A stretch of 64,000 nt of DNA, taken from the IMG/VR virus record IMGVR_UViG_3300025914_000010, positions 14,661 to 78,660 of that record; one strand, given 5' to 3'. How positions within the stretch are numbered: position 1 is the first letter of the stretch; every line of letters starts with the position of its first letter. A program made the translations under genes and the position numbers. Positions 3,755-64,000 of this stretch are shown here, piece by piece. The DNA is from a virus. The notes under the pieces are model-generated. The model ran no database searches, was not told where the DNA came from, and was given only the letters and a program-made list of their open reading frames with translations.

Positions 3755-4153
3755 ATGACAAAAGACGAATTCCTGGCACGCGCCGAAAACGCTTGGAACA
3801 TGGGGCTGATTACCCCGGAGCGCATGGACCTGATGAACCAATGGCTAGAAGTCGTTATGCGGGAAGGTCACAGTCGCGTGGCCGATCAGCGCGGCGGACA
3901 GGAGCAGTGGCGGTACGTCAAAGGCTTCTGGGACGGCGAGATGCAGCGGCTGAACCGCAGGACCGACGAGACGTTCGGGGCGTCGGGTGCTACCTTCACG
4001 CTCGCCAATGACAGCGACGGGTACGCGCTCATCGAACTCGCCGCCGTGCTGTCTCATCCGTGTCAGGCTTGTGCGGCTTCGCGGAACGCTTGGCACACGA
4101 GGCGAGCTTTTTGCAACCACAAGAAGGCGGCAGAACCATGCCAGTCTACATGA
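3755..4153 (+). CDS. Hypothetical protein with Cys/His-rich C-terminus
   Basis: HPCQAC..WH..FCNH motif; operon position. Confidence 0.55.
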   Translation: MTKDEFLARAENAWNMGLITPERMDLMNQWLEVVMREGHSRVADQRGGQEQWRYVKGFWDGEMQRLNRRTDETFGASGATFTLANDSDGYALIELAAVLSHPCQACAASRNAWHTRRAFCNHKKAAEPCQST

Positions 4154-4705: not shown

Positions 4706-4709
4706 CACG

Positions 4710-5153
4710 ATGAAAGCTATCAGTTTATGGCAACCGTGGGCGTCCCTGGTTGGACGCGGCAAGATGCATGAAACGCGTTCGTGGCCGACTGCCTACCGAG
4801 GCCCTATTGCCATTCACGCAGCGAAGCACTTCACGCAGGATGAACGAGACGTTTACTGCAGTGAACCGTTCAGGTCTGCTCTAAAAGAATTTTGGTTTTT
4901 CGACCAGGAGTTACCGCGTGGCGCGATTGTCGCTATTGCAAATTTAGTCGCGTGCAAACCCACGCGCGGGGCAAAAAATGAATTTGGCTCGGGACCGAAA
5001 TACGCTGATTGGGTCCACATGATTTCAAAGGAAGATCGAGCGTTCGGCGACTTTACGCCAGGTCGATTCGGATGGCAGTTCGCAGACATTCGGATACTGC
5101 CACAGCCTATCCCGTACCGAGGCGCACAGGGATTGTTTGAAGTGCAACTTTGA
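4710..5153 (+). CDS. ASCH domain protein
   Basis: MKAISLWQPWASL..GKMHETRSWPT.YRGPIAIHAAK..P.PYRGAQGLF signature. Confidence 0.9.
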   Translation: MKAISLWQPWASLVGRGKMHETRSWPTAYRGPIAIHAAKHFTQDERDVYCSEPFRSALKEFWFFDQELPRGAIVAIANLVACKPTRGAKNEFGSGPKYADWVHMISKEDRAFGDFTPGRFGWQFADIRILPQPIPYRGAQGLFEVQL

Positions 5154-11968: not shown

Positions 11969-12595
11969 ATGTGTAAGAAGTTTACCTCAACCCAGAACCA
12001 CAGTCGCACGTGCTTGAATTGTGCCCAACCACTCAAACGCGGCAGTATAAAATATTGCTCAAAAATCTGCCACGATGCTGCTCAAACAATCAATCCCGTT
12101 GTGAATTTCTGGAACCATGTAAGCAAATCCAACATGTGTTGGATTTGGACAGGTTCATTAACAAGACAAAACGGTTATGGCAATTTTGCGTACCGCACGA
12201 ACGGAAAACGCACGTATTGCAATGCTCATCGGTATTCTTGGGAGATACATTTCGGGTGCGTGCCTGCTGGAGTGTGCGTTTTACATAGATGCGATAATCC
12301 GCAATGTGTAAATCCTGACCACCTGTTTCTTGGCACGCATAGAGATAATTCGCAAGACATGGTTTCTAAAGGACGACAAGCGTTTGGTGACAGGCATGGC
12401 TCCCACATTCAACCTGAAACTGTTCAGCGTGGGGAAGATAACGGCAACTCCAAACTTACGCCTGAAATTGTACTTGAAATTCGTCGCCTGTATTTGATCG
12501 AAAAAGTCAAATCACTGGTGATTGCCAACAAATTCAATATCTCCCAAGTTACCGTGACAAATATTGCACATCGCCGATCTTGGCAACATGTTTAG
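11969..12595 (+). CDS. HNH homing endonuclease
   Basis: CWIWTG..AHRYSW..VLHRCDNPQCVNPDHL.LGT..DN..DM..KGR plus a C-terminal HTH. Confidence 0.92.
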   Translation: MCKKFTSTQNHSRTCLNCAQPLKRGSIKYCSKICHDAAQTINPVVNFWNHVSKSNMCWIWTGSLTRQNGYGNFAYRTNGKRTYCNAHRYSWEIHFGCVPAGVCVLHRCDNPQCVNPDHLFLGTHRDNSQDMVSKGRQAFGDRHGSHIQPETVQRGEDNGNSKLTPEIVLEIRRLYLIEKVKSLVIANKFNISQVTVTNIAHRRSWQHV

Positions 12596-12807
12596 TCTGT
12601 ATCCGTAACCGGTGGGGGGCTGACAACCTCCGTTTTCGTCACACTCTGCACGCTCTGAGGTTGCAGGCTCTCCTGTGGCACGAGCACACCGAGCAATACC
12701 AAAAGAAGGTGCTCTATGATCGGCGGTACGGGCTGCTTCGCTACACCGAGCGCGATTTCCGCAACGACGCAGAGGGCCATGATGATTACGAGCGGGTTGA
12801 ACTTCAT
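12592..12807 (-). CDS. Putative holin (two transmembrane segments)
   Basis: Two hydrophobic segments; lysis region. Confidence 0.5.
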   Translation of the reverse strand: MKFNPLVIIMALCVVAEIALGVAKQPVPPIIEHLLLVLLGVLVPQESLQPQSVQSVTKTEVVSPPPVTDTD

Positions 12808-13070
12808 GGCGCGGCCGGCTCCTGCCCGGTTTGCGGAGGGTCCGGCGTCGTGGTCGGCAGTACCGGCGATTGCGGGACGAGCGGCAGAGGTGCGCCAATT
12901 GCCGTAGTGTCTTGTCCGACATCCATTGGCTGATAGTTGCCGCTTGACGTGTAGGTGATCAGCGGCACGAACAGTCCCGCGAGATCGGAGTACAGTTCTC
13001 GCGCTTCGTCGATCGGCAACGTGATCGTCGTGCCGTCGCGGAGGGTTTTGGTGATGCTGATGTTGCTCAT
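12804..13070 (-). CDS. Hypothetical protein
   Basis: ATGA coupling to the next gene. Confidence 0.5.
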   Translation of the reverse strand: MSNISITKTLRDGTTITLPIDEARELYSDLAGLFVPLITYTSSGNYQPMDVGQDTTAIGAPLPLVPQSPVLPTTTPDPPQTGQEPAAP

Positions 13071-13084
13071 GCTATAATCCACCT

Positions 13085-13276
13085 ATGGAAACAAACTTGG
13101 ATGGTTGGCTAATCACCGACGCTATCGCCCACCTGCTAAAACTCGCAGCCCCGCCTTCAGACTGCCCACAGAAGCCCGTAGAAGCCACGCACAGCGTCGA
13201 TGCGGACGAGGGTGGGTATTGGGGCTTCTGTGACGTGTGCGGTCATACGTGGCAGTTTTGCGAGTGTCCTGACTAG
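13085..13276 (+). CDS. Small protein with C-terminal Cys cluster
   Basis: FCDVCGH..FCEC; TATAAT just upstream. Confidence 0.45.
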   Translation: METNLDGWLITDAIAHLLKLAAPPSDCPQKPVEATHSVDADEGGYWGFCDVCGHTWQFCECPD

Positions 13277-13572
13277 GGCTTGCCGTACTTAGCCTCAGCC
13301 GCCTGCATCATCGCTCTGGATTTCTGAAACGGATCTCCGCCGCCCTCGATGGTCTTCACGACATCCCCGCGTATCACGCCCGCCTCGTCCGCCGCCTCCG
13401 AGAGCCACTGCATCGCAATCGCCTTGAGCGTCGCCACTTCATCGGGCTTGTCGTGGCCGACCGCGAAGACGAGCATTCGCGCGAAGTCGGCACTGTACTG
13501 CAAGCCGCGCTCCACACCCTTTTCTACTCCGGGGACGATGCCGCCGAGTAGGGAACCGAAATCGAATGCCAT
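13273..13572 (-). CDS. Hypothetical lysis-region protein
   Basis: GGAGG RBS. Confidence 0.55.
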   Translation of the reverse strand: MAFDFGSLLGGIVPGVEKGVERGLQYSADFARMLVFAVGHDKPDEVATLKAIAMQWLSEAADEAGVIRGDVVKTIEGGGDPFQKSRAMMQAAEAKYGKP

Positions 13573-13574
13573 TG

Positions 13575-13748
13575 TTAGCCTCCCTTTCCGCCGAACACCG
13601 CGTACCCGAGAATACACAAATCAATGACAACCAACATGAACGCCCCGTTGTGGTACAGCGGGCGGTTCGCCTCCGGTGCAAAGTTGACGCCGAGTGCTGC
13701 TAAAATCAAGAGCAGTGTAGAAACGATAAAGACGACTGTCAGTAACAT
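13575..13748 (-). CDS. 57-aa two-TM membrane protein (holin-like), absent from the ORF track
   Basis: MLLTVVFIVSTLLLILAALGVNF..FMLVVIDLCILGYAVFGGKGG; AAGGAG RBS. Confidence 0.65.
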   Translation of the reverse strand: MLLTVVFIVSTLLLILAALGVNFAPEANRPLYHNGAFMLVVIDLCILGYAVFGGKGG

Positions 13749-13766
13749 CTCGATTACTCCTTCCTC

Positions 13767-14258
13767 CTACCCAATCACATCGCTCTCCGGGTGCAGCAAA
13801 TTCATCTGCCGCCGCAGGCTCTCGCACTCTCCAGCCAACCTGCGGTTCTCGTTGCGTAGGTTGGCGAACTCGGTGTCCCGGTCTTTCATCGCGGCGCGCA
13901 GGTCGGCGTTCTCGGTCATCAGCCGCGCGTTCTGTTCCTGTACGGCGACAATCTCCCGCCGCGCCGCCAGCGTCTCGTTGCGCGACGTGTTTAACTCCGA
14001 TTCGATGCCGCGAAACTTCTGGCTGAATTCTGCTTCCATGCTGCGCATCGTGTTTTCAACCGTGTCGAACCGCTCAACCGCCTTCAGTTCGCGATCCTGC
14101 GCGAGCCGCTTGTCGGTGTCCTTGCTTTCGAGTATCTTGCTGAGAAGCGAATAGCGGCTTGTCACGAACGCGGCGATGACTGCGCCGGAAACGGTGACGA
14201 TCGCGAGGAACGCCGCAAAAAACGTGGGGAAGTTCCAGCCGGGAGTAAAGGTGGGCAT
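13767..14258 (-). CDS. Membrane-anchored coiled-coil protein (lysis accessory)
   Basis: N-terminal TM segment followed by a long heptad pattern. Confidence 0.6.
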   Translation of the reverse strand: MPTFTPGWNFPTFFAAFLAIVTVSGAVIAAFVTSRYSLLSKILESKDTDKRLAQDRELKAVERFDTVENTMRSMEAEFSQKFRGIESELNTSRNETLAARREIVAVQEQNARLMTENADLRAAMKDRDTEFANLRNENRRLAGECESLRRQMNLLHPESDVIG

Positions 14259-53729: not shown

Positions 53730-54067
53730 TGTGCGTTTTCTGATCTCAAAGCGTCTCGGAAAAAGACGCCTCGCAAACGTCTCGGCATTCTCTTTCTGTA
53801 TTATGCCGAGACACTGGTGTTAATCGCACGCAATCGCAAGACCGAACTTTCAGAATTTTTGTTTTTTGTAAAGCCAGATATATCGCGACAGGGGGGAGGG
53901 GTGCGAGAAATTTCGCACTTTTCCTCGCCAACCGTCTACCTTTTGGTACGCGCGTGCACTTGCTCAATCGTCTACCTGCTTACGCGGAGCCGTACGCGTC
54001 TACCTGTTTGAACTCAACATATAGGTAGACTGCATTCTTCCGAACAGTTATTATCGGACGCTGCCTC

Positions 54068-54535
54068 TCACAATATATCGAACGCGTCCTCGATCGCAGG
54101 TTGGTCGGCAGCCGCGAATGCCTCTTGCTGGCTCTGTAGCAGGCGCAGGAGCGTTTCCGCGTCGATCTTGCGTACATCGAGGGTGTCGCCGTAGTCTGCG
54201 CGTCTGCGGCGCTTGAGCCACTCTATCGCGGGTTTCCAGTCACCCTTCGCCTCTGCTTGAGTAGCAGAGGCGAACACGCTCTCGGTAAGAGCAACCTCAG
54301 CTTCACCTTCCGCGCGCGCAACCCTATCGGAAAAGTCTTCTCTCTTCTCCAGCCAGTCGTAGAAGGTATCGGGGTTAATGCCTGCTTCGAGGGCTGCGCC
54401 TAAGCGTGTAGCACCACGTGCGAGCGTGTTACAGATTCGGGTTGCGATCCATTCATCGTACTTCGTTGGCCGCCCCATCTTGGGGCGTGGGGCTGGTTGC
54501 TGGCTATGATCGTAGACTACTAACGCTGTTCCCAT
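54068..54535 (-). CDS. terS: Terminase small subunit
   Basis: GRPTKY..IC..L..G...AA..AGI...TFY.W HTH; DWK.A..WL.RR. Confidence 0.8.
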   Translation of the reverse strand: MGTALVVYDHSQQPAPRPKMGRPTKYDEWIATRICNTLARGATRLGAALEAGINPDTFYDWLEKREDFSDRVARAEGEAEVALTESVFASATQAEAKGDWKPAIEWLKRRRRADYGDTLDVRKIDAETLLRLLQSQQEAFAAADQPAIEDAFDIL

Positions 54536-54565
54536 TTGACAAACCTAACGCTAACATGTTATAGT
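54536..54565 (+). promoter_or_regulatory. Sigma70-type promoter
   Basis: TTGACA-18 bp-TATAGT with TG extension. Confidence 0.8.
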
Positions 54566-54598
54566 AACGCTATCGCACTACGAGAGGAGGAGATAGCA

Positions 54599-54805
54599 TT
54601 GAATGACACTGAAGCAGCGAAACACCTTGGCAGCATCAAGACACCTAAGAAGTCGGCCAGCAGCGCCAGGAACGGCGCTCTCGGCGGCCGTCCACTCATA
54701 CCGCTAGAGCAGATACCGTGCACGTGCGGATCGATCGACGGCGAGCATAAATGGACGTGCACGCGCAAGCGGACCGAATATCAGCGCGAGCGCCGAAACA
54801 AGTGA
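54599..54805 (+). CDS. Small DNA-binding protein (NGxxGGRP motif plus Cys/His cluster)
   Basis: LGSIKT.KK..SSARNGALGGRP..CTCG...H...C; GAGGAGG RBS with TTG start. Confidence 0.65.
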   Translation: MNDTEAAKHLGSIKTPKKSASSARNGALGGRPLIPLEQIPCTCGSIDGEHKWTCTRKRTEYQRERRNK

Positions 54806-54861
54806 TTTGAGATCATAAATGGACTTCTTGAAAAAAAGTCCATTTATTTTTGCCTTACCTC

Positions 54862-54890
54862 TTGACAAACCTAGCGATAGGTTGTATAAT
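54862..54890 (+). promoter_or_regulatory. Consensus sigma70 promoter with palindromic spacer
   Basis: TTGACA-17 bp-TATAAT; the spacer holds AACCTA-GCGA-TAGGTT. Confidence 0.92.
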
Positions 54891-54926
54891 GGTAACTGTA
54901 AGAACGAAACGAGAGAGGACGAACCA

Positions 54927-55052
54927 ATGACATTCAGGCTAATCGGTTTCACCGGCAAGGTGCTAGAAATCCGAACGATGACAGAACTGGAAGTAAGAAT
55001 TGCGAACCGCCGTTTAGAGATCGATGGATCGTCATTGCGGTGGACGCTGTAA
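54927..55052 (+). CDS. 41-aa hypothetical protein
   Basis: GAGGA RBS; first ORF of the early transcript. Confidence 0.55.
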   Translation: MTFRLIGFTGKVLEIRTMTELEVRIANRRLEIDGSSLRWTL

Positions 55053-55053
55053 G

Positions 55054-55102
55054 ACTTCCCTGACGAGCCGGTAGCGGCGAAACCTCTTCGGAGGTCGGAA
55101 GT
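55054..55102 (+). ncRNA. Hammerhead ribozyme, type I
   Basis: Stem I ACTTCC/GGAAGT, core CTGACGA, stem II GCCG-GTAG-CGGC, GAAA, stem III CCTC-TTCG-GAGG, GUC cleavage triplet (cut after 55096). Confidence 0.93.
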
Positions 55103-55192
55103 GACACAACCCAATAGCAGAAACGCGAACATACAGAGACATTCGGAACGGTTAGCGCCTCTACCTGTTACCAAGCAGGAAAAGCCGGATGT

Positions 55193-55254
55193 AGTTTCCT
55201 CTACCGATCGAATTCAATTCGGTACTGACGAGCCGGGAACGGCGAAAGGAAACT
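55193..55254 (+). ncRNA. Hammerhead ribozyme, type III
   Basis: Stem III AGTTTCC/GGAAACT, CUC triplet (cut after 55201), stem I TACCGA/TCGGTA, CTGACGA, stem II GCCG-GGAA-CGGC, GAAA. Confidence 0.93.
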
Positions 55255-55259
55255 GAGCA

Positions 55260-55475
55260 ATGACAATCTTTACCTACGACGGCCACGAACCGCACGCATC
55301 GCATGGCGGATGGGCTAACTACCTCGCGACGTGTTCAGTGCGCAAGGCGTCGAACCTGGCGATTTGGTACAGCGTTGCCAATTGCCACTACATCCTATTG
55401 CCGACCGGCCTGCTCGTGGAACTCTTCGGATACCACGCTCACGCAATGTGGGACCGCATACACGGAGAATGCTAG
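55260..55475 (+). CDS. Hypothetical early protein
   Basis: AAGGA RBS overlaps hammerhead stem III. Confidence 0.6.
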   Translation: MTIFTYDGHEPHASHGGWANYLATCSVRKASNLAIWYSVANCHYILLPTGLLVELFGYHAHAMWDRIHGEC

Positions 55476-55577
55476 ACGCTCCCCACTAGCAGACAGAGGA
55501 TGGTTGCAGGTTCGCTGCCGGGCAGACGCTGGCGCAGTACGTACGCGCAAAGTGCGGGCTAAATTAGTCAACAAAAC

Positions 55578-55689
55578 GGGGCGCGCCGCTGGAACCGGCC
55601 GCCCCGGGTACCCTCTGGGTGCCGCCAGGAGACAGCGGGCATCCACGACTGTACCCCGGCGAGAAGGCCGGGAGAAGGAGACGAAAATG
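55578..55689 (+). repeat. Leader repeat A, copy 1 (others at 60155-60252 and 63572-63673; partial at 62380-62399)
   Basis: About 100-bp three-hairpin element ending GAGAAGGAGAC..AAATG. Confidence 0.92.
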
Positions 55690-55908
55690 ATTGTAAAAGT
55701 GACGCATTCCTGCGGTCACACCGCAGAACTTTATCGCAACCTCTCGTCCATTGCCGCGCAAAACGGCGTGGACGAAAACCGGGCGGCGGCAATCGCCCAC
55801 GAGCAAATCGACCGAGCGGCGCAGGATGTTTGCTCGGCTTGTTTCGAGGCTGAGTATGGCCCCTATTGCCATTGCGACGAGTGCGGGACTGACAGCCAAC
55901 AGAGTTAA
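55687..55908 (+). CDS. Hypothetical Cys-rich protein
   Basis: Starts at the ATG of repeat A; HSCGH..CSAC. Confidence 0.65.
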   Translation: MIVKVTHSCGHTAELYRNLSSIAAQNGVDENRAAAIAHEQIDRAAQDVCSACFEAEYGPYCHCDECGTDSQQS

Positions 55909-56215
55909 CAACCTAGGCATGACTCGCATCCAAGAACCCTAATCACCTGTTCGCGTACAGTCGCAACCTAACGACGGTCGCGTATCGGCCACTGCATGAA
56001 TGCTGCGAGTTGTGGACGCCCTACGCGGCCGTTGGAACGGACGGCAAATGGTATTCCGTCCATATGATCCTGAACGTGAACGGCGAGCCGCTTTTCAAAC
56101 AGGAAGATTGGATTGCAGTTTGATCGTTTCTACCCGCCGTCAGAGAATGACCCTCCGCTCGCTGCGGAACGGCGGTGTATCACCTTGGGCGATTATCACG
56201 AAAGGATTTGAGACA

Positions 56216-56434
56216 ATGGAAACCATCGGCTACGGCGTCTACGCCAACGAAGTCATTAACTGCCTGGTCGGTCTGCCATGTACTACCTGCTACCAGACCA
56301 CGGTAACGGACTATCGAGCAACAATCTACCGCGAGCGCGAGGGTGAAACGATTTACTACCTCTGCGAGAAATCGGGTTTCACCACGTACTCTGCCGCAGA
56401 AAAATGGGCGATCGATTACCTCAACAAGCACTGA
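56216..56434 (+). CDS. Hypothetical protein
   Basis: AAAGGA RBS. Confidence 0.55.
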   Translation: METIGYGVYANEVINCLVGLPCTTCYQTTVTDYRATIYREREGETIYYLCEKSGFTTYSAAEKWAIDYLNKH

Positions 56435-56538
56435 GAGTCACCCGCACGAAGCTAACGACTTCCCGCCGTGTTCGCGACCGGCTGCGGGTTTTATCCTGGT
56501 ATCGCACATCACATCACACACAATGAGAGGAACCTGCA

Positions 56539-56838
56539 ATGAGCATGAAACTGGTTACGCGCTTCTACAGAGACCGATTTTATGTCGGCGTGAAGGAAAG
56601 CACGAAGGACTGCTGCGGTAATTGGACCGATCGTCGCGAAGTCGTGACCTTCACCGGCAAACCCTACAATCAGTTCGAATTCGACGCTATCTACGAATTC
56701 ACCGGGCCGAAACAGTTAGAGCACCTGCTGCCCGATACCGCATGGAGATCGGTTCAGCGCGTCGTTCCTGAGCCTCTAGCAGACATTCTAGGACGCGGCG
56801 AACACGCTATCTCGTGCAGTTCTGCACTCTGGGAATAG
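56539..56838 (+). CDS. Hypothetical protein
   Basis: GAGG RBS. Confidence 0.6.
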   Translation: MSMKLVTRFYRDRFYVGVKESTKDCCGNWTDRREVVTFTGKPYNQFEFDAIYEFTGPKQLEHLLPDTAWRSVQRVVPEPLADILGRGEHAISCSSALWE

Positions 56839-57064
56839 CCACACAAAGACAAGCGGCCGGGTAAGAACCTGGCAGTTCCCCGGCCGCATACGTCCCCTCA
56901 TGGTCACGAAAAGACACAGTTAAGATTATGGCACGCACTCAACAACCAGTCAGTACGCCCACGACAGGCCCCGGAACCAAGCGCCGACCGCCTGAAATAC
57001 AATCGGACATTCGCGCGAACCTAAAAAATCTGCAAAAATTTATCCCAAATCCCCGGATACCTGC

Positions 57065-57097
57065 TTGACAATTATAATACTATTGCGGTATTATAAT
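57065..57097 (+). promoter_or_regulatory. Sigma70 promoter overlapped by a perfect 10-bp inverted repeat (operator)
   Basis: TTGACA followed by ATTATAATAC-N7-GTATTATAAT. Confidence 0.85.
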
Positions 57098-57122
57098 AAT
57101 ACCAAACGAGGAGGAGTTAGCA

Positions 57123-57905
57123 ATGACCCGAACCCTGGCCACAACCGATCAGATCGCCGCCGCGAAGCTCGCAGGAGCCGTTATCCCGCCGAAATCCTGG
57201 GACGTTGTGATCTACTCGCAGGGCAAAGTTGTCGCCTCCTGGTACGATGCTCGGGGCCGCAAGCAGTGCGCCTACTCCTCCGAGGCTGTCGCAGACCGCA
57301 ACCGGCGCAAGTTCGCCGAGATGGTCGAGTTCGGCGCGAGCCTCCCTAACATCCGCAAGGCCGTTGCCTCCGATCTGCATTCGGCTAACCAGACGGCCCG
57401 CGCGTGCGCCGCCATCGTCGCGATCATGGACCAGACGACGATGCGGGTAGGCGGCGCGGAGTACGCCGCCGAAAACGGCACCTACGGCGCAAGCAGCCTG
57501 CTCAAGTCGCACGTCAGCATCGACGGCCAGACGGTGCGCTTCAGCTTCACCGGCAAGCACCACAAGTCGCACGACAAATCGGTCAGCGGCGCCGCGCTAG
57601 TTGAGGCGATCGAGTTCTTCGCCGCGCTGCCGGGCGACAAGCTCTTCCCGGTGACGGAGACTGCGGTCCGCGCCTATCTCTCCGCGTTCGGCGCGACGCC
57701 TAAGCAGTTTCGCACCTACCATGCGAGCCGCGTCTGCTCCGAGTTGCTCGACGCGGCAGGCCCGGCAGCCGATGCAAAGGCAGTGAAGGCCAACATCAAC
57801 CGCGCCGTCAAGCAGGTATCCGAGCTGCTCGGTAACACGCCCGCAATGGCGCGCAACAGCTACATCGATCCGACCATCCTGGCCGCCTACGCAGCAGGGA
57901 TGTAG
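57123..57905 (+). CDS. DNA topoisomerase IB, compact catalytic-domain form
   Basis: GRKQ..Y, RVG...YA.ENGTYG..SL...H, F.FTGK, PKQFRTYHAS, VSELLGNTPAMARNSYIDP with the catalytic Tyr. Confidence 0.92.
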   Translation: MTRTLATTDQIAAAKLAGAVIPPKSWDVVIYSQGKVVASWYDARGRKQCAYSSEAVADRNRRKFAEMVEFGASLPNIRKAVASDLHSANQTARACAAIVAIMDQTTMRVGGAEYAAENGTYGASSLLKSHVSIDGQTVRFSFTGKHHKSHDKSVSGAALVEAIEFFAALPGDKLFPVTETAVRAYLSAFGATPKQFRTYHASRVCSELLDAAGPAADAKAVKANINRAVKQVSELLGNTPAMARNSYIDPTILAAYAAGM

Positions 57906-57939
57906 GGTCCCGCACATCAAGAGAGGAGACAGAAGGACA

Positions 57940-58311
57940 ATGGACACTATCATTGTATCGCGGCATCCCGCCGCCATTGAGTTTATCGCGCGGCAGCTCG
58001 GCGGGCAGACTGCTACCCACCAGGGTAAGCAGTGCATCGAAATCGACGTTACTCACCCGGACGACATCGGCACGCCGGAGCACTATGCGTGCCAGCTAAT
58101 CCCGATCGTCGCTCAGGCCACCGCCGCCGACGTGCGCGGCAAGCATATCTACGGCAATCTACCGCTACACCTGGCGGCACTCGCGGCCAAAGTCACAGTT
58201 GTCGAGTTCGACGGCGCGCCTCCTCGCGGGCAGGAGTATAGCCTGGAGGACATGCAGGCTGCCGGTGCGGTGTTGCGGACCTATGTCGTCCACGGTCGGT
58301 CAACGCTATGA
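57940..58311 (+). CDS. csx16: Csx16 (Cas_VVA1548)-like protein, putative cyclic oligoadenylate ring nuclease
   Basis: IVSRHPAAIEF and V.GKHIYGNLPLHLAA resemble the Csx16 motifs SRHxGA and GxLPxHLAA. Confidence 0.75.
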   Translation: MDTIIVSRHPAAIEFIARQLGGQTATHQGKQCIEIDVTHPDDIGTPEHYACQLIPIVAQATAADVRGKHIYGNLPLHLAALAAKVTVVEFDGAPPRGQEYSLEDMQAAGAVLRTYVVHGRSTL

Positions 58312-58532
58312 CCGACGACCAGGTGCGCAAATTCAACCAGCGCCTTGGCAAGATCGACAAGGCGCTGGAGGCCGGCGAGATCGAAAGCGCAGACCCGTTC
58401 CCGCCAGAACACCGCTCAGTCCTGCGCTTGCCAGCAGAGGTCGCAAATCGCATCAAAGCGAGCGCCGCGCGCAACCGGCGTAGCCTCAACTCAGAGATCA
58501 TAAGAGCGATCGAGGCTTACCTGGATCGCTAG
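58308..58532 (+). CDS. Arc-family ribbon-helix-helix repressor
   Basis: LRLPAEVANRIKASAARNRRSLNSEIIRAIE. Confidence 0.9.
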   Translation: MTDDQVRKFNQRLGKIDKALEAGEIESADPFPPEHRSVLRLPAEVANRIKASAARNRRSLNSEIIRAIEAYLDR

Positions 58533-58559
58533 AATCGCCCTGCCTCCTCACTCGCTGAA

Positions 58560-58767
58560 GCACAAGCGGAATGCGATCGGCGCAACGCTTAGTCATTCAC
58601 ACCCCGCCCGGCGGCGCAGGGTTTTCGATCTCCTTTTTCCTGCGCCGCCGGAGTGAAGGAAGGAAAATCGCGCACAAGCCGGGGGTGAATCACGCCGCCC
58701 GACAGATGGAGACAGCCTGCTCCAATTCGGAGCAGGCTGGAAAAGGTGTGAGACGCAATCATCTCTG
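58560..58767 (-). ncRNA. Candidate structured small RNA
   Basis: Own promoter; 11- and 13-bp hairpins inside closing helices; no credible ORF. Confidence 0.5.
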
Positions 58768-58773
58768 TTAGGA

Positions 58774-58803
58774 ATTCTACTGCAAGCAGTTCAAGTTTGT
58801 CAA
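58774..58803 (-). promoter_or_regulatory. Sigma70-type promoter
   Basis: TTGACA-18 bp-TAGAAT on the minus strand. Confidence 0.7.
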
Positions 58804-59267
58804 ATAATTTTTCGCGAGTGCCGATCGATCGCCCCAACTACCCGCAAACGATCATCGTCCCACGTAGACCTGTCGGTCGTCACAACGCCCTGCGCCGTCG
58901 GGTTTCCCACGTCCCGCACATCGCTGCCCTGGGCGGTTGCGATCTTGTACCTCTCGCGCTCTACCGGATCGGCTGGGTCGCGCATAATCTCGCGCGCCTC
59001 TCGCAGCTTGTCGCGCACGAGCTGCGCCCACCGGTATAGCGTGCTCTCGTCACGGAACCGGTCTTTCCGCACCAGGCTCGGGTAGTCGCACTGCATCGCC
59101 TTGAACGTTTCACCCGCCTCCGACCGCTGCCACACCTCCACCTTCAGTTGCCACGAAGCCGCGCCGGTTTCGCGCTCGGTGAGGAAACCGTTGCGGCCCA
59201 GCCAATACGCTAATTCGACATCGCACAACCGCCGCGCTATCTCTTCATCGTCTCTCTCGTCGGACAT
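58800..59267 (-). CDS. Hypothetical protein, possible HTH regulator
   Basis: GGAGGAGG RBS; ESTLYRW...VRDKL is HTH-like. Confidence 0.55.
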   Translation of the reverse strand: MSDERDDEEIARRLCDVELAYWLGRNGFLTERETGAASWQLKVEVWQRSEAGETFKAMQCDYPSLVRKDRFRDESTLYRWAQLVRDKLREAREIMRDPADPVERERYKIATAQGSDVRDVGNPTAQGVVTTDRSTWDDDRLRVVGAIDRHSRKII

Positions 59268-59505
59268 AACGGCGCACACCTCCTCCTCCATTTGTGCCCG
59301 CCATTTTGCCACAAAGTCGCGAAAAGCCCGGTGTCTACTACCCGGGGCGAAAATAGTTTGGAAAAAGTTTACAAAACCTACTTTACCCACTTGACAACCG
59401 GTATTAGGTTTTGTATAATAAACTATCAGAAACACACAGGCGAACCGCGCTGGAACCGCGATCGCCGCGACGACAAGAGGAGATTACGAAGATGACGACA
59501 GCAAC
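59235..59505 (+). repeat. Promoter repeat B, copy 1 (copy 2 at 61423-61693)
   Basis: 271-bp near-identical duplication spanning divergent gene starts, promoter and leader. Confidence 0.95.
59391..59419 (+). promoter_or_regulatory. Consensus sigma70 promoter
   Basis: TTGACA-17 bp-TATAAT; inverted repeat TACAAAACCTA/TAGGTTTTGTA flanks the -35. Confidence 0.92.
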
Positions 59506-59872
59506 CTACGATGTCACCGAAATCAGGATCAGCCAGATTTTCCCACCGCACGGGGTCCGTGACAGCGCAAAACTCGCAGCTCTTACCGCGAGCATGGAGC
59601 AGGGCGGGTGGGCGGGTCGTCCGCTGTTGGTGATTGAGCACGGTGACGGCTATCGCGCGTTGACCGGCAGCCACCGATACGCAGCAGCGCAAGCGGCGGG
59701 ACTGGAAGAAGTTCCGTGCGTCGAAGTGGACGCGGAAAAGTTTTTCGCGAACTACGATACATCGGACCTGTGGGATGACGATGTTAATGTTTCGATCTTG
59801 GACGAGATCGGCGACACGCCCGCAGCGCAGTTAATGCGCGAGGAAGTGGTGTCCAACAACGAGACCGAGTAG
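59492..59872 (+). CDS. ParB/Sulfiredoxin N-terminal domain protein
   Basis: L..SM...GW.G.PLLV....Y.ALTGSHRYAAA..AG..EVP. Confidence 0.85.
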   Translation: MTTATYDVTEIRISQIFPPHGVRDSAKLAALTASMEQGGWAGRPLLVIEHGDGYRALTGSHRYAAAQAAGLEEVPCVEVDAEKFFANYDTSDLWDDDVNVSILDEIGDTPAAQLMREEVVSNNETE

Positions 59873-59884
59873 GAGACGACCACT

Positions 59885-60142
59885 ATGACATCCACTCGCA
59901 TGGAGACAATTACCGCCGCCGAGCTTTCGGCAACCGACCTGCGCCACGAATTAGAGCAGTCCGGTCAGCCGACAGAGATTGCCCGCGTCTGGTTCGACGA
60001 CCACGCGGAGCCAGGCTACGCGCTGTACTTCCCGGAGATTGGCCGAGCCGGTATCGCTCATGGCGCAGATGCACAATGGACGGACTGCAATTCGATCGAG
60101 GACGCCGTTGAGCGGTTTGTCAACGACGATATGATTAACTGA
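59885..60142 (+). CDS. Small acidic hypothetical protein
   Basis: AGGAG RBS. Confidence 0.65.
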   Translation: MTSTRMETITAAELSATDLRHELEQSGQPTEIARVWFDDHAEPGYALYFPEIGRAGIAHGADAQWTDCNSIEDAVERFVNDDMIN

Positions 60143-60249
60143 CACAAGCATAGCGGGGCGGCCGCTGGAACCGGCCGCCCCCGGCCCGCCAGGAGACTAG
60201 CGGGCATGACGATTGTACCCCGGCGAGGGTCGGGGAGAAGGAGACTGAA

Positions 60250-60525
60250 ATGGAAACCTGGAGAGATCGTGTGCAAACCAGCAGAGAAACTCTGGCTGAC
60301 GCACTGGACTGCATCATTGATACGTGCCCGAATGCGCAGTGCAGTTTTGGTGGATGCCCGACAGACCCTGCTCGTTTCAAATCTACATGCTCTGAGAAAC
60401 AACTCGCGCTAAGCGCGTACAGGCATCCGCTTACGCAAAACATAGAGGTAGGCACGCTTTCGCAACTGCTCGCGAATCAGTGCATGTTCACCGTGTTTGT
60501 CGAGTGGCCGGAATACAACGGATGA
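60250..60525 (+). CDS. Hypothetical protein
   Basis: Starts at the ATG of repeat A. Confidence 0.6.
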   Translation: METWRDRVQTSRETLADALDCIIDTCPNAQCSFGGCPTDPARFKSTCSEKQLALSAYRHPLTQNIEVGTLSQLLANQCMFTVFVEWPEYNG

Positions 60526-60737
60526 TCGACCGTAACCTCCGCATGGTCGAGGACTACGCCAGCTCCAGCGGCTGCGTAGTCCTCACCGACCTGGCCGACC
60601 CGCCCGCCTACGCCGCCGTGCCCGTAAGCGACCTCCGCCGCTGGCTGATCGATGGCGAGTGGGAGGCGCTCTACGCAGAGGATAGGCCGCGCGTCAATGC
60701 GGCGATTGAGAGTTGGATAGAGGAGACAGGACGATGA
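60522..60737 (+). CDS. Hypothetical protein (paralogue starts at 63876)
   Basis: First 125 bp are duplicated at 63876-64000. Confidence 0.65.
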   Translation: MIDRNLRMVEDYASSSGCVVLTDLADPPAYAAVPVSDLRRWLIDGEWEALYAEDRPRVNAAIESWIEETGR

Positions 60738-61096
60738 GCCGGTACTTGCAAGAGGACATCTCTCGTTACAGAGACACCATTCCTGCGCCTAAAGATCAGG
60801 AGGAGGCGTACGCAAAATTATGCGTCGAGAATGCGCTGGATGACATCCAGCGCATTGCCTGGCCTCATATCGCCAGGCGCATCAACGCAGAGAGATACGC
60901 CGAAATTCTCGCTAATACGTTGCAACGCATCCAGGATGTTGCTGCCCCGTTTGCTGGCAATCTCCCGCAGGATACAGCCGCAGCCGACACTGCCTGCGCT
61001 CTCATTTATAATGAGTGCGAGCAAGCGAGACACCTCTACGTCGAGTACCATCCAGCCAACCGGGATGCGGAGGAACAAACCCGTGGGCAAGATTAA
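60734..61096 (+). CDS. Hypothetical protein
   Basis: GAGGAG RBS; ATGA coupling. Confidence 0.6.
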   Translation: MSRYLQEDISRYRDTIPAPKDQEEAYAKLCVENALDDIQRIAWPHIARRINAERYAEILANTLQRIQDVAAPFAGNLPQDTAAADTACALIYNECEQARHLYVEYHPANRDAEEQTRGQD

Positions 61097-61280
61097 GGAC
61101 CGTCGTGCCGTCACCAGCCCGATCAACGCCCGCAAAGGCGGCAGGCCGCGCACAGTCGGCGACGGCAGAGTGTACAGCATTAAACTGCCGCCCCCGCTCT
61201 ACGACTGGTTGCGCTCGCGACCGACCGAGGAGGTACGCGAGCATCTGACCCGGTGGATGGTCGAGGCGCATATCATCTAG
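61083..61280 (+). CDS. Small DNA-binding protein (NxxKGGRP motif plus RHH-like strand-helix)
   Basis: SPINARKGGRPR..YSIKLPPPLYDWL. Confidence 0.6.
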   Translation: MGKIKDRRAVTSPINARKGGRPRTVGDGRVYSIKLPPPLYDWLRSRPTEEVREHLTRWMVEAHII

Positions 61281-61455
61281 AGACGTTTCCGAGCTGCCAA
61301 CGCTGATCCGTCTCGACCCGTCCACGTTTCCAGACTTCAACCTTCAGCCGCCCACTCACGGCTATCGGCACTTTGCCGGTTTCGATCTTGTTGTTCAACA
61401 AGTTCTGCTGCGCGAGCCTATCCGCTATCGCTTCATCGTCTCTCTCGTCGGACAT
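61273..61455 (-). pseudogene. Truncated paralogue of 58800-59267
   Basis: Shares MSDERDDE.IA.RL..LKVEVW.R, then stops at 60 aa. Confidence 0.55.
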
Positions 61456-61579
61456 AACGGCGCACACCTCCTCCACCATTTGTGCCCGCCATTTTGCCAC
61501 AAGATCGCGAAAAGCCCGGTGTCTACTATCCGGGGCGAAAATAGTTTGGAAAATAGTTTACAAAACCTACTTTACCCCC

Positions 61580-61608
61580 TTGACAACCGCTATTAGGTAT
61601 GTTAAAAT
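61580..61608 (+). promoter_or_regulatory. Sigma70 promoter in repeat B, copy 2
   Basis: TTGACA-17 bp-TAAAAT; TTAGGTAT/ATACCTAA flanks the -10. Confidence 0.88.
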
Positions 61609-61679
61609 ATACCTAACACAAACACACAGGCGAACCGCGCTGGAACCGCGATCGCCGCGACAAAGAGGAGACTACGAAG

Positions 61680-62180
61680 ATGACGACAGCAACTGACACC
61701 CGTACCGCAATCAACCGCGCAATTATCGCCGCGCTCTATGCGGCAGACGAGGACCGCCGAAGCATCGCCGCAAGCTGCGACCCGCGACCACTGACTATTC
61801 GACTGTGGCCCGATGGCGACATAACCCGCTGCAACGATCGCTCCGTTCCGGAGAGCCAGTATTACAGCCGCAAGCCCTACCCGATCGACGTTTATTATCG
61901 TGGCGAAGTCCACGACAGCCCGGACCCGGAAATTTCCGGATTGATGTGGGACGACGCCAAGGAGGGGGACGAGGACGCCTTTGAGTTTCAGGGGCAGTGG
62001 TATGTACAGGTACAGCGGTGGGATATGTGCTTCTCGGCGGAAGAGTCATACCGAGAAATACTTGAGAGAGAGTACAAATCGGCAATCGAGACGGCTAATG
62101 ATGCGTTCAACATTGCGGACTTCGAGTTCCGCGAGTTGACCGGCGATGAGGAGACGTTCGCGGAAACCTGGATCGACTGA
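61680..62180 (+). CDS. Acidic hypothetical protein
   Basis: GAGGAG RBS of repeat B. Confidence 0.7.
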   Translation: MTTATDTRTAINRAIIAALYAADEDRRSIAASCDPRPLTIRLWPDGDITRCNDRSVPESQYYSRKPYPIDVYYRGEVHDSPDPEISGLMWDDAKEGDEDAFEFQGQWYVQVQRWDMCFSAEESYREILEREYKSAIETANDAFNIADFEFRELTGDEETFAETWID

Positions 62181-62371
62181 TGCTCACCTACAAAGTCTTG
62201 GTGTTCCGGCATATGAGCCGGGAGGCGATTTCAAAAGCCTCCCGGTTCTTCCGGGGCGAAAATTGGATTGACCACGTGTTCGGCGAGGGGCCGCGCGGGT
62301 TTATGGTCCAAATGCCGAATGAGGGCGTGGTATGCGTCCACTGGGACGGTTTCTGCGAGATTGACGGTTAG
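62180..62371 (+). CDS. Hypothetical protein
   Basis: TGATG coupling. Confidence 0.55.
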   Translation: MLTYKVLVFRHMSREAISKASRFFRGENWIDHVFGEGPRGFMVQMPNEGVVCVHWDGFCEIDG

Positions 62372-62429
62372 AGCATAGCGGGGCGCGCCGCTGGAACCGC
62401 CCGGATCGAACCGCAAACAGGAGACTGAC

Positions 62430-62717
62430 ATGACAGTAACAGTAACCCGAACCGAAATCACGATCAACATTCTGGCAGGGAATTTCCTGCCGTCCGATCC
62501 GCAATCCTGCGAGGGGCTGAACCTCCGGCAGAGTGTGCTGAGCTACTGCGCCGAGATGGATGCGATGCTGCCCGAATACGAGATCAACTGGAACATCGAC
62601 TGGAACTCCGAGGGTTGCGGCTCGCATGACCAATTCGAGAACGACGAACAGCGCAACGATTTCGAACATGCCGATCAGCGCGTGATGCAGGCACAGTCAT
62701 TCTGGGTGTACGAATGA
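62430..62717 (+). CDS. Acidic hypothetical protein
   Basis: AGGAG RBS after a partial repeat A. Confidence 0.65.
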   Translation: MTVTVTRTEITINILAGNFLPSDPQSCEGLNLRQSVLSYCAEMDAMLPEYEINWNIDWNSEGCGSHDQFENDEQRNDFEHADQRVMQAQSFWVYE

Positions 62718-62950
62718 TCAGGCTGCGACTGTGGTTTCTCTGCGGCGCGATTTACAACTGGGCGGAGGATGCTCTACTCCTCCTCCCAATCAGATCTCTC
62801 AGGCGGTGGATTTACGCTCGACGCGTTCGCGAAGACGAAAAAGCGCTGAAATGGATCGGTACCAGGGACGCGGCGGAAATGGAGGGGTTCGAACGATCTG
62901 CCCGCGAAGAACTCGAACATTCGCGGGAGCAACTGGCAAAATACCAATGA
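62714..62950 (+). CDS. Hypothetical protein
   Basis: ATGA coupling on both sides. Confidence 0.55.
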   Translation: MIRLRLWFLCGAIYNWAEDALLLLPIRSLRRWIYARRVREDEKALKWIGTRDAAEMEGFERSAREELEHSREQLAKYQ

Positions 62951-63570
62951 AGCGAAATTGCAGTCTCAGCACTGAAACCCTCAACGATCTCTATTGGCGA
63001 GGGGCGAAATCCCTGCGAGAAATCGCCCGTATCGAAGCCGACAGCAACCTCTCTCCTGCTTGCGAGAAAACCGTTAAACGTTGGCTGATTACGGCAGGTA
63101 TCAATATCAAAACACGGTCTGAGCGGCAATCGCAAACAATCCGAGCGCGAGCCGACAAAACCGAGTGGAACCATGCAGGAGTGGCAGAGGCAGCCGCCAG
63201 AAAACACGCCGAACCGAGACTCGTTGGAGTTGATCACCTCCACGCTCCAGGCATGAGACGGCGGGCCAAAACAGGACGCAGGAAACAGGCGGAACGTGAC
63301 GCCCTGAAATCGGAAACGCGTCTTTGCGATAACTGCGGCGCGAAAATCGTCAAAAAGCCGCACCGATTCACAGACGGGTTTACGACGTGCAGCAGGAAAT
63401 GCCGACAGGCGTATCTCGCGAAGCTCAAACAATTCACGACTCCGCCAATCAAACGCGTCTGTGAATTCTGTCTAGGATCGTTCGAGGTCCCGCCGTCACG
63501 ATTGAAATACGGTCCGGCCCGTTATTGCAGCCGTGCCTGCTCGAACAAAGGCCGAGCAAAAACGAAATAG
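62947..63570 (+). CDS. HTH plus Zn-finger repeat protein (homing-endonuclease-like scaffold without a nuclease domain)
   Basis: L..LY....SLREIA; CDNC..CSRKC, CEFC..YCSRAC. Confidence 0.65.
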   Translation: MKRNCSLSTETLNDLYWRGAKSLREIARIEADSNLSPACEKTVKRWLITAGINIKTRSERQSQTIRARADKTEWNHAGVAEAAARKHAEPRLVGVDHLHAPGMRRRAKTGRRKQAERDALKSETRLCDNCGAKIVKKPHRFTDGFTTCSRKCRQAYLAKLKQFTTPPIKRVCEFCLGSFEVPPSRLKYGPARYCSRACSNKGRAKTK

Positions 63571-63670
63571 TGGGGCGCGCCGCTGGAACCGGCCGCCCCC
63601 GGCCCGCCAGGAGACTAGCGGGCATCCGCGATTGTACCCCGGCGAGATGCCCGGGAGAAGGAGACAGGAA

Positions 63671-63874
63671 ATGAGAGCATCCGTTAATCGCCGCGCCAAC
63701 AGAGCCGCAGAAGCGCGCCTTGCGCTGGCACTCAAGATCACAGCTAGCCGCGCGCAACTGCGAGCAGCTGCGGCTCGGGCAAACCAGGTCCCCGGCAGCT
63801 ACCTGCACGGCGACAAGATCGGCAAAATGCGGGCGCGCATATTGTATCCGGGCGTTAAGCCAGTGGGCTGGTAA
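63671..63874 (+). CDS. Small basic hypothetical protein
   Basis: Starts at the ATG of repeat A. Confidence 0.55.
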   Translation: MRASVNRRANRAAEARLALALKITASRAQLRAAAARANQVPGSYLHGDKIGKMRARILYPGVKPVGW

Positions 63875-63875
63875 T

Positions 63876-64000
63876 ATGATCGACCGCAACCTCCAGTTTG
63901 TCGAGGACTACGCCAGCTCCAGCGGCTGCGTAGTCCTCACCGACCTGGCCGACCCGCCCGCCTACGCCGCCGTGCCCGTAAGCGACCTCCGCCGCTGGCT
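63876..64000 (+). CDS. Paralogue of 60522-60737, truncated by the window edge
   Basis: Near-identical DNA. Confidence 0.65.
   Translation, partial: MIDRNLQFVEDYASSSGCVVLTDLADPPAYAAVPVSDLRRW

What the first reader, a model, noticed from the sequence alone, without database searches (positions are those of the whole stretch)
57065..58532. Topoisomerase IB / Csx16-like / Arc operon with acr-aca architecture
Seen: a strong promoter overlapped by a perfect 10-bp inverted repeat drives three adjacent genes, ending in an Arc-type RHH repressor. No cas genes or CRISPR array are in the window. Established: Csx16 is normally found in type III CRISPR loci and has been reported as a cyclic oligoadenylate ring nuclease. 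Viruses use ring nucleases (AcrIII-1) to block type III immunity, and acr operons typically end in an autorepressor that binds a promoter palindrome. Inference: a phage-captured Csx16 acting as an anti-CRISPR, with Arc as its Aca.
Basis: partly seen in the sequence, partly recalled or inferred. Interest (0 to 1): 0.8.

Follow-up and report, generated by a model that had tools for sequence, protein, structure and literature searches.

The report
Phage ring-nuclease operon with own repressor
A soil phage carries a small self-contained gene cassette that most likely destroys the alarm molecule of type III CRISPR immunity and switches itself off with its own repressor; this is a new example of a counter-defence design already described, and its one oddity is a topoisomerase gene in the same cassette.

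Summary
A near-consensus promoter (57065-57094) overlaps a perfect 10-bp inverted repeat. It precedes three packed genes: a bacterial-type topoisomerase IB, a 123-aa Csx16-family protein and a 74-aa Arc/ribbon-helix-helix (RHH) protein. The record is a complete 78.7-kb temperate phage with no Cas10 gene and no CRISPR array.

The middle protein is a true Csx16 relative. All 120 listed homologues carry PF09652, the family's invariant residues are kept, and its fold neighbours match those published for Csx16.

Csx16 is a proven cA4 ring nuclease, already noted in two phage genomes (PMC12409355). A csx20 ring-nuclease gene paired with an RHH repressor (Aca14) that binds an AT-rich repeat over the -10 box was shown experimentally in 2026 (PMC13551039).

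I add four points:
- At least 31 IMG/VR contigs carry Csx16.
- Its closest relatives sit mostly in phage-like, non-cas surroundings.
- Promoter and three genes travel together as one cassette in other metagenomes.
- Neither the topoisomerase nor this Arc protein accompanies Csx16 anywhere else.

Enzyme activity, Arc binding and the host's CRISPR type are untested. This scan has noted phage Csx16 before on other DNA (e1-5325030, e1-371324).

The parts
57012..57064 (+). Left edge of the cassette
   Evidence: In other metagenome assemblies the sequence to the left is replaced or deleted. One contig joins 55055 to 57053, and another replaces 56886-57011 with 15 other letters. The promoter and genes to the right stay the same (tables 5 and 5c).
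57065..57094 (+). Sigma-70-type promoter: TTGACA, 18 nt, TATTAT
   Evidence: 11 of 12 consensus positions. It is AT-rich (37% GC over 57040-57122) in a 57.5% GC window.
57071..57097 (.). Putative operator: perfect 10-bp inverted repeat with a 7-nt gap, equivalent to two ATTATAAT palindromes at 57071-57078 and 57090-57097
   Evidence: It is unique in the 78.7-kb genome, with 0.00 expected by chance. It covers the promoter spacer and the -10 box. Binding by the Arc protein is inferred, not tested.
57123..57905 (+). Compact bacterial-type topoisomerase IB, 260 aa
   Evidence: Pfam PF01028, E 6.3e-32. The best solved relative is Deinococcus radiodurans TopIB, 2f4q, E 2.4e-30 over residues 8-259. 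Residues R108, K145, R197, N238 and Y247 align with its catalytic Arg-Lys-Arg-Asn-Tyr.
57940..58311 (+). Csx16-family (Cas_VVA1548) protein, 123 aa, with a roughly 30-residue beta-hairpin insertion after helix 1
   Evidence: Pfam PF09652, 41.8 bits against a cut-off of 25; PADLOC Csx16, E 3.8e-10. There are 178 homologues, and all 120 listed carry PF09652. Family-invariant residues R8, H9, G72, N73, P75, E89, F90, P95, R96, G97 and E99 are kept. The AF2 model has mean pLDDT 92.
58308..58532 (+). Orphan Arc/ribbon-helix-helix protein, 74 aa: RHH at residues about 36-72 behind a 35-residue N-terminal extension; translationally coupled to the previous gene (ATGA)
   Evidence: Pfam Arc PF03869, E 2.9e-8. 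It has no full-length relative in 5.8 billion proteins or in 1.84 billion representatives, where only the RHH segment matches.
58533..58589 (+). Right edge of the cassette
   Evidence: Contigs from two other studies diverge from the window, or skip onward, exactly after 58589 (tables 5 and 7).

Best explanation
This is a self-contained, self-regulated early accessory cassette of a temperate soil or rhizosphere phage.

Proposed mechanism:
1. Soon after infection, host RNA polymerase fires the strong promoter.
2. The Csx16-family protein, a small CARF-like enzyme, cuts cyclic tetra-adenylate (cA4). cA4 is the second messenger made by host type III CRISPR-Cas, so cA4-dependent effector nucleases are not switched on. 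This is the strategy of AcrIII-1.
3. The last gene product, an RHH dimer, accumulates and binds the two ATTATAAT palindromes over the spacer and -10 box. This shuts the operon down, as shown for the RHH regulator Aca14 on a csx20 operon.
4. The topoisomerase IB appears catalytically intact, but its role in the cassette is unresolved.

What is shown here: gene identities, conservation of family residues, the phage context, the uniqueness and placement of the palindrome, and the fact that promoter and three genes travel as one unit.

What is inferred: cA4 cleavage, the anti-CRISPR effect and autorepression.
For: Family membership:
- Pfam and PADLOC name the middle protein Csx16, and all 120 listed homologues carry PF09652.
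- In a 28-sequence alignment the window protein keeps every invariant residue. These include R8-H9, which in the AF2 model lie in the loop between strand 1 and helix 1. That loop is the nucleotide-binding 'motif I' of CARF proteins and holds the catalytic His of Csx15 (PMC13148439).

Literature:
- Csx16 degrades cA4 specifically and was seen in 2 of 28,114 phage genomes (PMC12409355).
- Aca14 is an RHH repressor of a csx20 operon, acting through an AT-rich inverted repeat over the -10 box, with gel-shift and reporter evidence (PMC13551039).

Phage context:
- The record is a complete phage with terminase, portal, tape measure and integrase genes, and no Cas10 gene or CRISPR array.
- 31 IMG/VR contigs carry Csx16 relatives among small unannotated genes, with no Cas family among 87 neighbouring ORFs.
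- Around 28 longer metagenome and genome loci the large neighbours are methylases, SNF2 helicases, ribonucleotide reductase and phage proteins. Cas6 is the only other Cas family in the listed part of the tally, in one ORF.

Operon architecture:
- The palindrome is unique in the genome and overlaps the promoter.
- The Arc gene is last and translationally coupled.
- The whole unit is intact in another study's assembly. Its breakpoints lie just outside the promoter and just past the Arc stop codon.
Against: - No biochemical evidence exists for this protein. Only one Csx16 representative has been assayed in the literature.
- The stricter NCBIfam model TIGR02620 scores 18.8 bits against a cut-off of 46.35. 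The Pfam match covers only model positions 30-90, because a roughly 30-residue insertion splits the domain. The effect of that insertion on ligand binding is unknown.
- The host is unknown, so a type III target is not demonstrated.
- The Arc protein has no full-length relatives. The usual test for an Aca protein, that it recurs beside different anti-CRISPR genes, therefore cannot be met.
- Only 1 of 58 distinct small ORFs directly downstream of Csx16 homologues shows an RHH match, and that one is below threshold. At least one is HTH-like. The arrangement is therefore not typical of the family.
- The first and largest gene is a topoisomerase with no known anti-defence role. It is absent beside Csx16 in 116 other loci.
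Confidence: 0.55

Rival explanations
1. The Csx16-like protein is a counter-defence factor with a different target or mode. It might bind or cleave another cyclic nucleotide (cA3, cA6, or CBASS, Thoeris or Pycsar signals), or act as a sponge rather than an enzyme. The beta-hairpin insertion might reshape the ligand pocket.
For: The window protein belongs to a subgroup with a roughly 30-residue insertion between helix 1 and strand 2 that canonical 92-aa Csx16 proteins lack. The literature shows related ring nucleases with broader specificity (Crn4, PMC12830947) and considers a sponge role for Csx15 (PMC12409355).
Against: All family-invariant residues, including the R-H pair in the motif I loop, are kept. 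The one Csx16 assayed stayed cA4-specific even at tenfold higher enzyme concentration (PMC12409355). Most viral Csx16 relatives are the short form without the insertion.
Confidence: 0.15
2. The cassette is mainly a DNA-topology or replication early module. The topoisomerase IB is the payload, and the RHH repressor exists to keep a potentially toxic DNA-cleaving enzyme at a low dose. The Csx16-like gene is a passenger with little or no effect in the natural host, which may lack type III CRISPR.
For: The topoisomerase is the first and largest gene, has the strongest ribosome-binding site and an intact catalytic pentad. The host and its defences are unknown. A DNA-binding gene downstream of Csx16 is rare in other loci.
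Against: Csx16 is kept intact, with 22-35 nucleotide differences per 1.2-1.6 kb, in assemblies from other studies. Csx16 relatives recur in many unrelated phages without any topoisomerase, which argues that the gene is selected in phages in its own right.
Confidence: 0.15
3. The operon is a toxin-antitoxin-like or addiction module. The RHH protein would be the antitoxin and autorepressor, and the topoisomerase or the Csx16-like protein the toxin.
For: RHH proteins are common antitoxins. The Arc protein gives weak sub-threshold matches to FitA-like and RelB-like antitoxin models. The genes are tightly coupled.
Against: No toxin family is matched. Csx16 proteins are not known toxins. The RHH domain is C-terminal with a short N-terminal extension, unlike most RHH antitoxins (established knowledge). 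No PADLOC defence or toxin model matches the topoisomerase or the Arc protein.
Confidence: 0.05

Closest known systems
csx20-aca14 operon of Pasteurella multocida (NAR 2026, PMC13551039)
   Same: A CRISPR-derived CARF-like ring-nuclease gene on a mobile element is followed by a small RHH gene (Aca14, 66 aa). An AT-rich inverted repeat overlaps the -10 box of the operon promoter. Repression and binding were shown there by gel shift and reporter assays.
   Different: Here the nuclease is Csx16, not Csx20. The RHH protein is an orphan whose homology to Aca14 could not be tested, because the Aca14 sequence was not on hand. The palindrome occurs only once in this genome, whereas Aca14 also controls a neighbouring operon. 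A topoisomerase IB gene leads the operon here.
Csx16 (PF09652 / TIGR02620), cellular cA4-specific ring nuclease of type III CRISPR loci (PMC12409355)
   Same: Same protein family by HMM, by conserved residues and by predicted fold neighbours.
   Different: It is encoded in a phage with no cas genes, carries a roughly 30-residue insertion, and falls below the strict TIGR02620 cut-off. Its activity is untested. That paper noted Csx16 in only 2 cultured phage genomes and did not study them.
AcrIII-1 / Crn2 (DUF1874), viral ring-nuclease anti-CRISPR (Athukoralage et al. 2020, as cited in PMC12830947)
   Different: There is no sequence membership: Pfam reports no DUF1874 match. The structural similarity is weak, and the lineages differ (CARF-like versus DUF1874).
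Bacterial and poxvirus-like type IB topoisomerases (Deinococcus radiodurans TopIB, PDB 2f4q; vaccinia TopIB, 2h7f)
   Same: The catalytic core aligns end to end, and the Arg-Lys-Arg-Asn-Tyr residues are conserved.
   Different: It is shorter (260 against 346 aa) and phage-encoded. Relatives are found in only 7 of 50,697 GenBank phage records, five of them from phages of about 227-229 kb. In IMG/VR the closest relatives are a domain of a 692-aa protein.

Membership tests
Csx16 (Pfam PF09652 Cas_VVA1548) | Match to the family HMM above the curated cut-off | tested here: met
   41.8 bits against a cut-off of 25, E 1.3e-10, model positions 30-90 of 91. PADLOC Csx16, E 3.8e-10. All 120 listed homologues carry PF09652.
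Csx16 (NCBIfam TIGR02620) | Match above the curated cut-off of NCBIfam model TIGR02620 (type hypoth_equivalog_domain) | tested here: not met
   18.8 bits against a cut-off of 46.35. The domain is split by a roughly 30-residue insertion, which lowers the score.
Csx16 | Family-invariant residues: the R-H pair in the strand 1 to helix 1 loop, the GNLP motif and the PRGxE motif | tested here: met
   R8, H9, G72, N73, P75, E89, F90, P95, R96, G97 and E99 are invariant in a 28-sequence alignment that includes proteins sources name as Csx16. Their position relative to secondary structure comes from the AF2 model.
Csx16 | CARF-like alpha/beta fold, with Crn2/AcrIII-1 and CARF domains as nearest solved structures | tested here: inconclusive
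Csx16 | Encoded beside type III CRISPR-cas genes | tested here: not met
   Complete phage record with no Cas10 (Csm1 or Cmr2) match and no CRISPR-like array.
Csx16 | cA4-specific ring-nuclease activity | not testable with these tools
   Needs purified protein and HPLC or LC-MS with cA3, cA4 and cA6.
AcrIII-1 / Crn2 (DUF1874) | Sequence membership in DUF1874 | tested here: not met
   A Pfam scan at E <= 1 lists only Cas_VVA1548 and sub-threshold ankyrin models.
Aca (anti-CRISPR-associated autorepressor, RHH type as in Aca14) | Small DNA-binding protein encoded as the last gene of the operon | tested here: met
   74-aa Arc/RHH protein, E 2.9e-8, last gene, with an ATGA overlap with csx16.
Aca (RHH type) | Inverted repeat overlapping the operon promoter, especially the -10 box | tested here: met
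   Perfect 10-bp arms at 57071-57080 and 57088-57097 overlap the spacer and the -10 box. The repeat is unique in the genome.
Aca (RHH type) | The same regulator family recurs beside different anti-CRISPR genes in other elements | tested here: not met
   No full-length relative in two very large protein libraries. The nearest viral RHH proteins (L042-L044) are Mnt-like and sit in an unrelated context.
Aca14 | Sequence homology to Aca14 (HDR1349883.1 / WP_005725436.1) | not tested
   The Aca14 sequence is not in the held text or supplements and could not be fetched by reference.
Aca | Binds the repeat and represses its own promoter | not testable with these tools
   Needs a gel-shift assay and a reporter assay.
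Type IB topoisomerase | Catalytic core match and the Arg-Lys-Arg-(His/Asn)-Tyr pentad | tested here: met
   PF01028, E 6.3e-32. Alignment to 2f4q places R108, K145, R197, N238 and Y247 opposite R137, K174, R239, N280 and Y289. That these five are the catalytic residues of the Deinococcus enzyme is recalled from the literature, not checked here.

The most novel reading that the evidence does not exclude
The topoisomerase IB is a working part of the counter-defence cassette rather than a bystander. It might relax negative supercoils in the incoming phage DNA. This could make R-loop formation by DNA-targeting CRISPR effectors harder, or make the DNA a poorer substrate for cA4-activated nickases. 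It would act alongside the ring nuclease and under the same repressor.
Probability: 0.07. Interest if true: 0.75.

Novelty: new member of a known kind. Interest (0 to 1): 0.35.

Why it matters
If confirmed, this would be the first Csx16-family enzyme shown to act as a viral anti-CRISPR. It would also be a second, independent case of an RHH protein, rather than a helix-turn-helix protein, controlling a ring-nuclease operon. That would widen the bait set used to find anti-defence genes. The survey here also suggests that Csx16 is much more common on phages than the two cultured genomes reported: at least 31 IMG/VR contigs carry it, and the nearest relatives lie mostly in non-cas surroundings. 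The one unexplained element worth an experiment is the co-transcribed topoisomerase IB.

Tried and rejected
- Homodimer prediction for the Csx16-like protein: no verdict. The score was 0.46, but one control reached 0.30. It is not used as evidence either way.
- Foldseek against the PDB: nothing at E <= 0.001.
The contigs of the closest protein hits, for example P0003 on an 89-kb contig, could therefore not be inspected.
- GenBank phage collection: no DNA match to the operon and no protein match to this Csx16.
- The genome-contig scan returned only 5 loci. A Cas10 search in those five genomes gave only weak sub-threshold hits on other contigs, which is uninformative.
- Host identification failed.
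- No RNA holder was listed among the sequencing runs, so nothing can be said about expression.
- In run X6 only short contigs over csx16-arc were laid and none over the topoisomerase. A gap in contig cover is not evidence that a two-gene form exists.
- The PDB sequence search gave many DARPin hits. These come from the resemblance of the Csx16 motif GNLPLHLAA to the ankyrin consensus. The Pfam ankyrin models are all below threshold, so the ankyrin reading is rejected.
- Toxin-antitoxin reading: considered and rated low (see rivals).
- The Rfam scan of 54000-64000 found nothing at E <= 0.1.

Full report
**What is there**

The window is the last 64 kb of a 78,660-bp IMG/VR virus record that CheckV rates 100% complete. 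It encodes a large terminase, a portal, a head protease and a tape-measure protein on the minus strand. An integrase lies in the part outside the window. It is therefore a temperate tailed phage.

At 57065 there is a near-consensus promoter: TTGACA, 18 nt, TATTAT, matching 11 of 12 positions. A perfect 10-bp inverted repeat with a 7-nt gap lies across its spacer and -10 box. The full pattern is expected 0.00 times by chance. Its arm motif occurs nowhere else in the whole phage. Each arm contains the self-complementary octamer ATTATAAT, so the site also reads as two 8-bp palindromes whose centres are 19 bp apart.

Three genes follow with almost no spacing:
- A 260-aa topoisomerase IB (Pfam E 6.3e-32).
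- A 123-aa Cas_VVA1548/Csx16 protein (41.8 bits against a cut-off of 25).
- A 74-aa Arc-type ribbon-helix-helix (RHH) protein (E 2.9e-8), whose start overlaps the previous stop as ATGA.

The phage has no Cas10 homologue and no CRISPR-like array.

**Is the middle gene really Csx16?**

- PADLOC's Csx16 models also match.
- A search of 5.8 billion proteins gave 178 homologues, and all 120 listed carry PF09652. Some are named Csx16 by their sources.
- The Pfam match covers only the last two thirds of the model, and the stricter TIGR02620 model is below its cut-off (18.8 against 46.35 bits).
- The alignment explains both shortfalls. The window protein belongs to a subgroup with a roughly 30-residue insertion between helix 1 and strand 2. 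On either side of the insertion it aligns with canonical 92-aa members and keeps every invariant residue: R8, H9, G72, N73, P75, E89, F90, P95, R96, G97 and E99.
- An AlphaFold2 model is confident (pLDDT 92). It places R8-H9 in the loop between strand 1 and helix 1 and shows the insertion as a beta-hairpin. That loop is 'motif I' of CARF proteins and holds the catalytic histidine of Csx15 (PMC13148439).

**What is known already**

- PMC12409355 showed that Csx16 degrades cA4 specifically. It found Csx16 in 68 type III loci and in two of 28,114 phage genomes.
- Other viral ring nucleases (AcrIII-1, AcrIII-2, Crn4b) are accepted or proposed anti-CRISPRs (PMC12830947, PMC13148439).
- PMC13551039 (NAR 2026) described Aca14, a 66-aa RHH protein encoded with a csx20 ring-nuclease gene in Pasteurella multocida. 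It binds an AT-rich inverted repeat overlapping the -10 box and represses the promoter, as shown by gel shift and reporter assays.
- The operon here has the same design with Csx16 in place of Csx20.

**Context of relatives**

- A pattern scan of IMG/VR found 31 viral contigs with Csx16 relatives. Of 87 flanking ORFs, none matched a Cas family. Most matched nothing, and a few were helix-turn-helix proteins.
- A metagenome scan and a genome scan added 85 loci. Around the 28 longer ones, the large neighbours were DNA methylases, SNF2 helicases, ribonucleotide reductase, DUF932 and phage proteins. Among the 25 families listed, of 60 that matched, Cas6 in one ORF was the only other Cas family. Two loci had CRISPR-like arrays.
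- The gene calling used here was crude and the tallies are truncated. Even so, the closest relatives of this protein look mainly phage- or element-borne.
- In the nearest viral relative (L002, 58% identity), csx16 is the first gene opposite a divergently transcribed ORF whose translation reads like an XRE-type helix-turn-helix regulator. That assignment is by eye and was not checked against Pfam. It is an immediate-early position.
- The topoisomerase and the Arc protein have no homologue in any of the 116 other Csx16 loci.
- Among 58 distinct small ORFs directly downstream of Csx16 homologues, only one showed an RHH match, and it was below threshold (L119, 18.9 bits against 20.5). At least one was HTH-like.
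- The Arc protein has no full-length relative in either very large protein library. Only its RHH segment finds matches.
- The three-gene combination is therefore specific to this phage lineage. The usual guilt-by-association test for an Aca protein cannot be met.

**The cassette behaves as a unit**

- The operon DNA occurs in rhizosphere, soil and groundwater metagenomes from several studies.
- Contigs from four other runs were laid on the region. One 1,568-nt contig from a different study covers 56913-58480, that is the promoter, the topoisomerase, csx16 and most of arc, with 22 differences.
- Other assemblies break away just left of the promoter. One joins 55055 to 57053, and another replaces 56886-57011.
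- Others break away just right of the Arc stop codon, after 58589, in two studies.
- No difference inside the promoter or palindrome appears among those listed, but 67 differences were not shown, so this point is weak.

**The topoisomerase**

- It aligns over almost its full length with Deinococcus radiodurans TopIB (2f4q, E 2.4e-30).
- R108, K145, R197, N238 and Y247 lie opposite that enzyme's Arg-Lys-Arg-Asn-Tyr. The catalytic assignment of those residues is from memory of the literature.
- Relatives are rare in cultured phages: 7 of 50,697 records, five of them from phages of about 227-229 kb.
- The nearest IMG/VR relatives are a domain within a 692-aa protein.
- I found no paper linking phage TopIB to counter-defence. 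Its role in this cassette is unexplained.

**Verdict**

Most likely (about 0.55) this is an autoregulated early anti-type-III-CRISPR cassette. Csx16 would destroy cA4, and the RHH protein would shut the promoter through the two ATTATAAT sites.

The main uncertainties:
- No activity data exist for this protein.
- Its insertion has an unknown effect.
- The host is unknown.
- The regulator is an orphan.
- The leading gene fits no anti-defence model.

The rivals are a different nucleotide target or a sponge role (0.15), a topology or replication module with csx16 as passenger (0.15), and a toxin-antitoxin-like module (0.05).

This is a new member of a known kind, so interest is moderate to low. 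The scan has noted phage-borne Csx16 before on other DNA.

Noticed in passing
window 57940-58311 (residues 58-90): The Csx16 motif GNLPLHLAA resembles the ankyrin-repeat consensus closely enough that a PDB sequence search returns more than 200 designed ankyrin proteins (E down to 1e-12). Pfam ankyrin models appear below threshold. This is an annotation trap, not a real ankyrin repeat.
   Followed up: partly
L046 (NC_014214.1, Allomeiothermus silvanus plasmid pMESIL02) 8425-10974: A 672-aa protein annotated as Csx16, with two Csx16-like stretches, sits directly after an ankyrin-repeat gene. The surrounding plasmid region holds small hypothetical genes plus ParB, Rad52 and RNase H genes, and no cas genes are annotated within the 11 kb shown.
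   Followed up: no
L119 149-594: A short metagenome contig carries a canonical 91-aa Csx16 gene (Pfam E 1.5e-21) followed 23 nt later by a 50-aa RHH-like gene (RHH_1, 18.9 bits, just below the cut-off). A strong promoter-like site follows. This may be a second, independent csx16-RHH pair.
   Followed up: partly
L002 3520-4369 (IMGVR_UViG_3300031576_000035): In the closest viral relative, csx16 is the first gene opposite a divergently transcribed ORF whose translation reads, by eye, like an XRE-type helix-turn-helix regulator. This resembles a repressor/early-operon switch region.
   Followed up: no
window 58377-58400: Differences between metagenome variants of the cassette cluster in the N-terminal extension of the Arc protein (residues about 24-31). 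The RHH part shows none among the differences listed.
   Followed up: no
window 54000-64000: An Rfam scan with permissive filters found no family at E <= 0.1. This includes the stretch 55054-55254, where another first-stage note proposes tandem hammerhead ribozymes.
   Followed up: partly
window 59370-59419 and 58774-58803: A perfect 12-of-12 consensus promoter lies at 59391-59419. It is overlapped by an 11-bp inverted repeat (arms 59370-59380 and 59405-59415), whose left arm lies upstream of the -35 box and whose right arm covers the spacer and part of the -10 box. A minus-strand promoter (TTGACA, 18 nt, TAGAAT) at 58803 points towards the 3' end of the Csx16 operon, giving convergent transcription.
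   Followed up: no
L038 2824-4902 and L039: The nearest IMG/VR relatives of the topoisomerase (50% identity) form the middle part of a 692-aa protein, so the 260-aa stand-alone form here is a minimal version.
   Followed up: no
window 57123-57905: GC3 of the topoisomerase gene is 0.84, against 0.69-0.79 for three structural genes and 0.73-0.76 for csx16 and arc. This is a mild hint that the gene came from a different source.
   Followed up: no
L045 (G000:C1) 4053-5102, 12119-13959: The part of the phage outside the window encodes a tyrosine integrase, a DUF5131 protein and a Dam-type methyltransferase.
   Followed up: no
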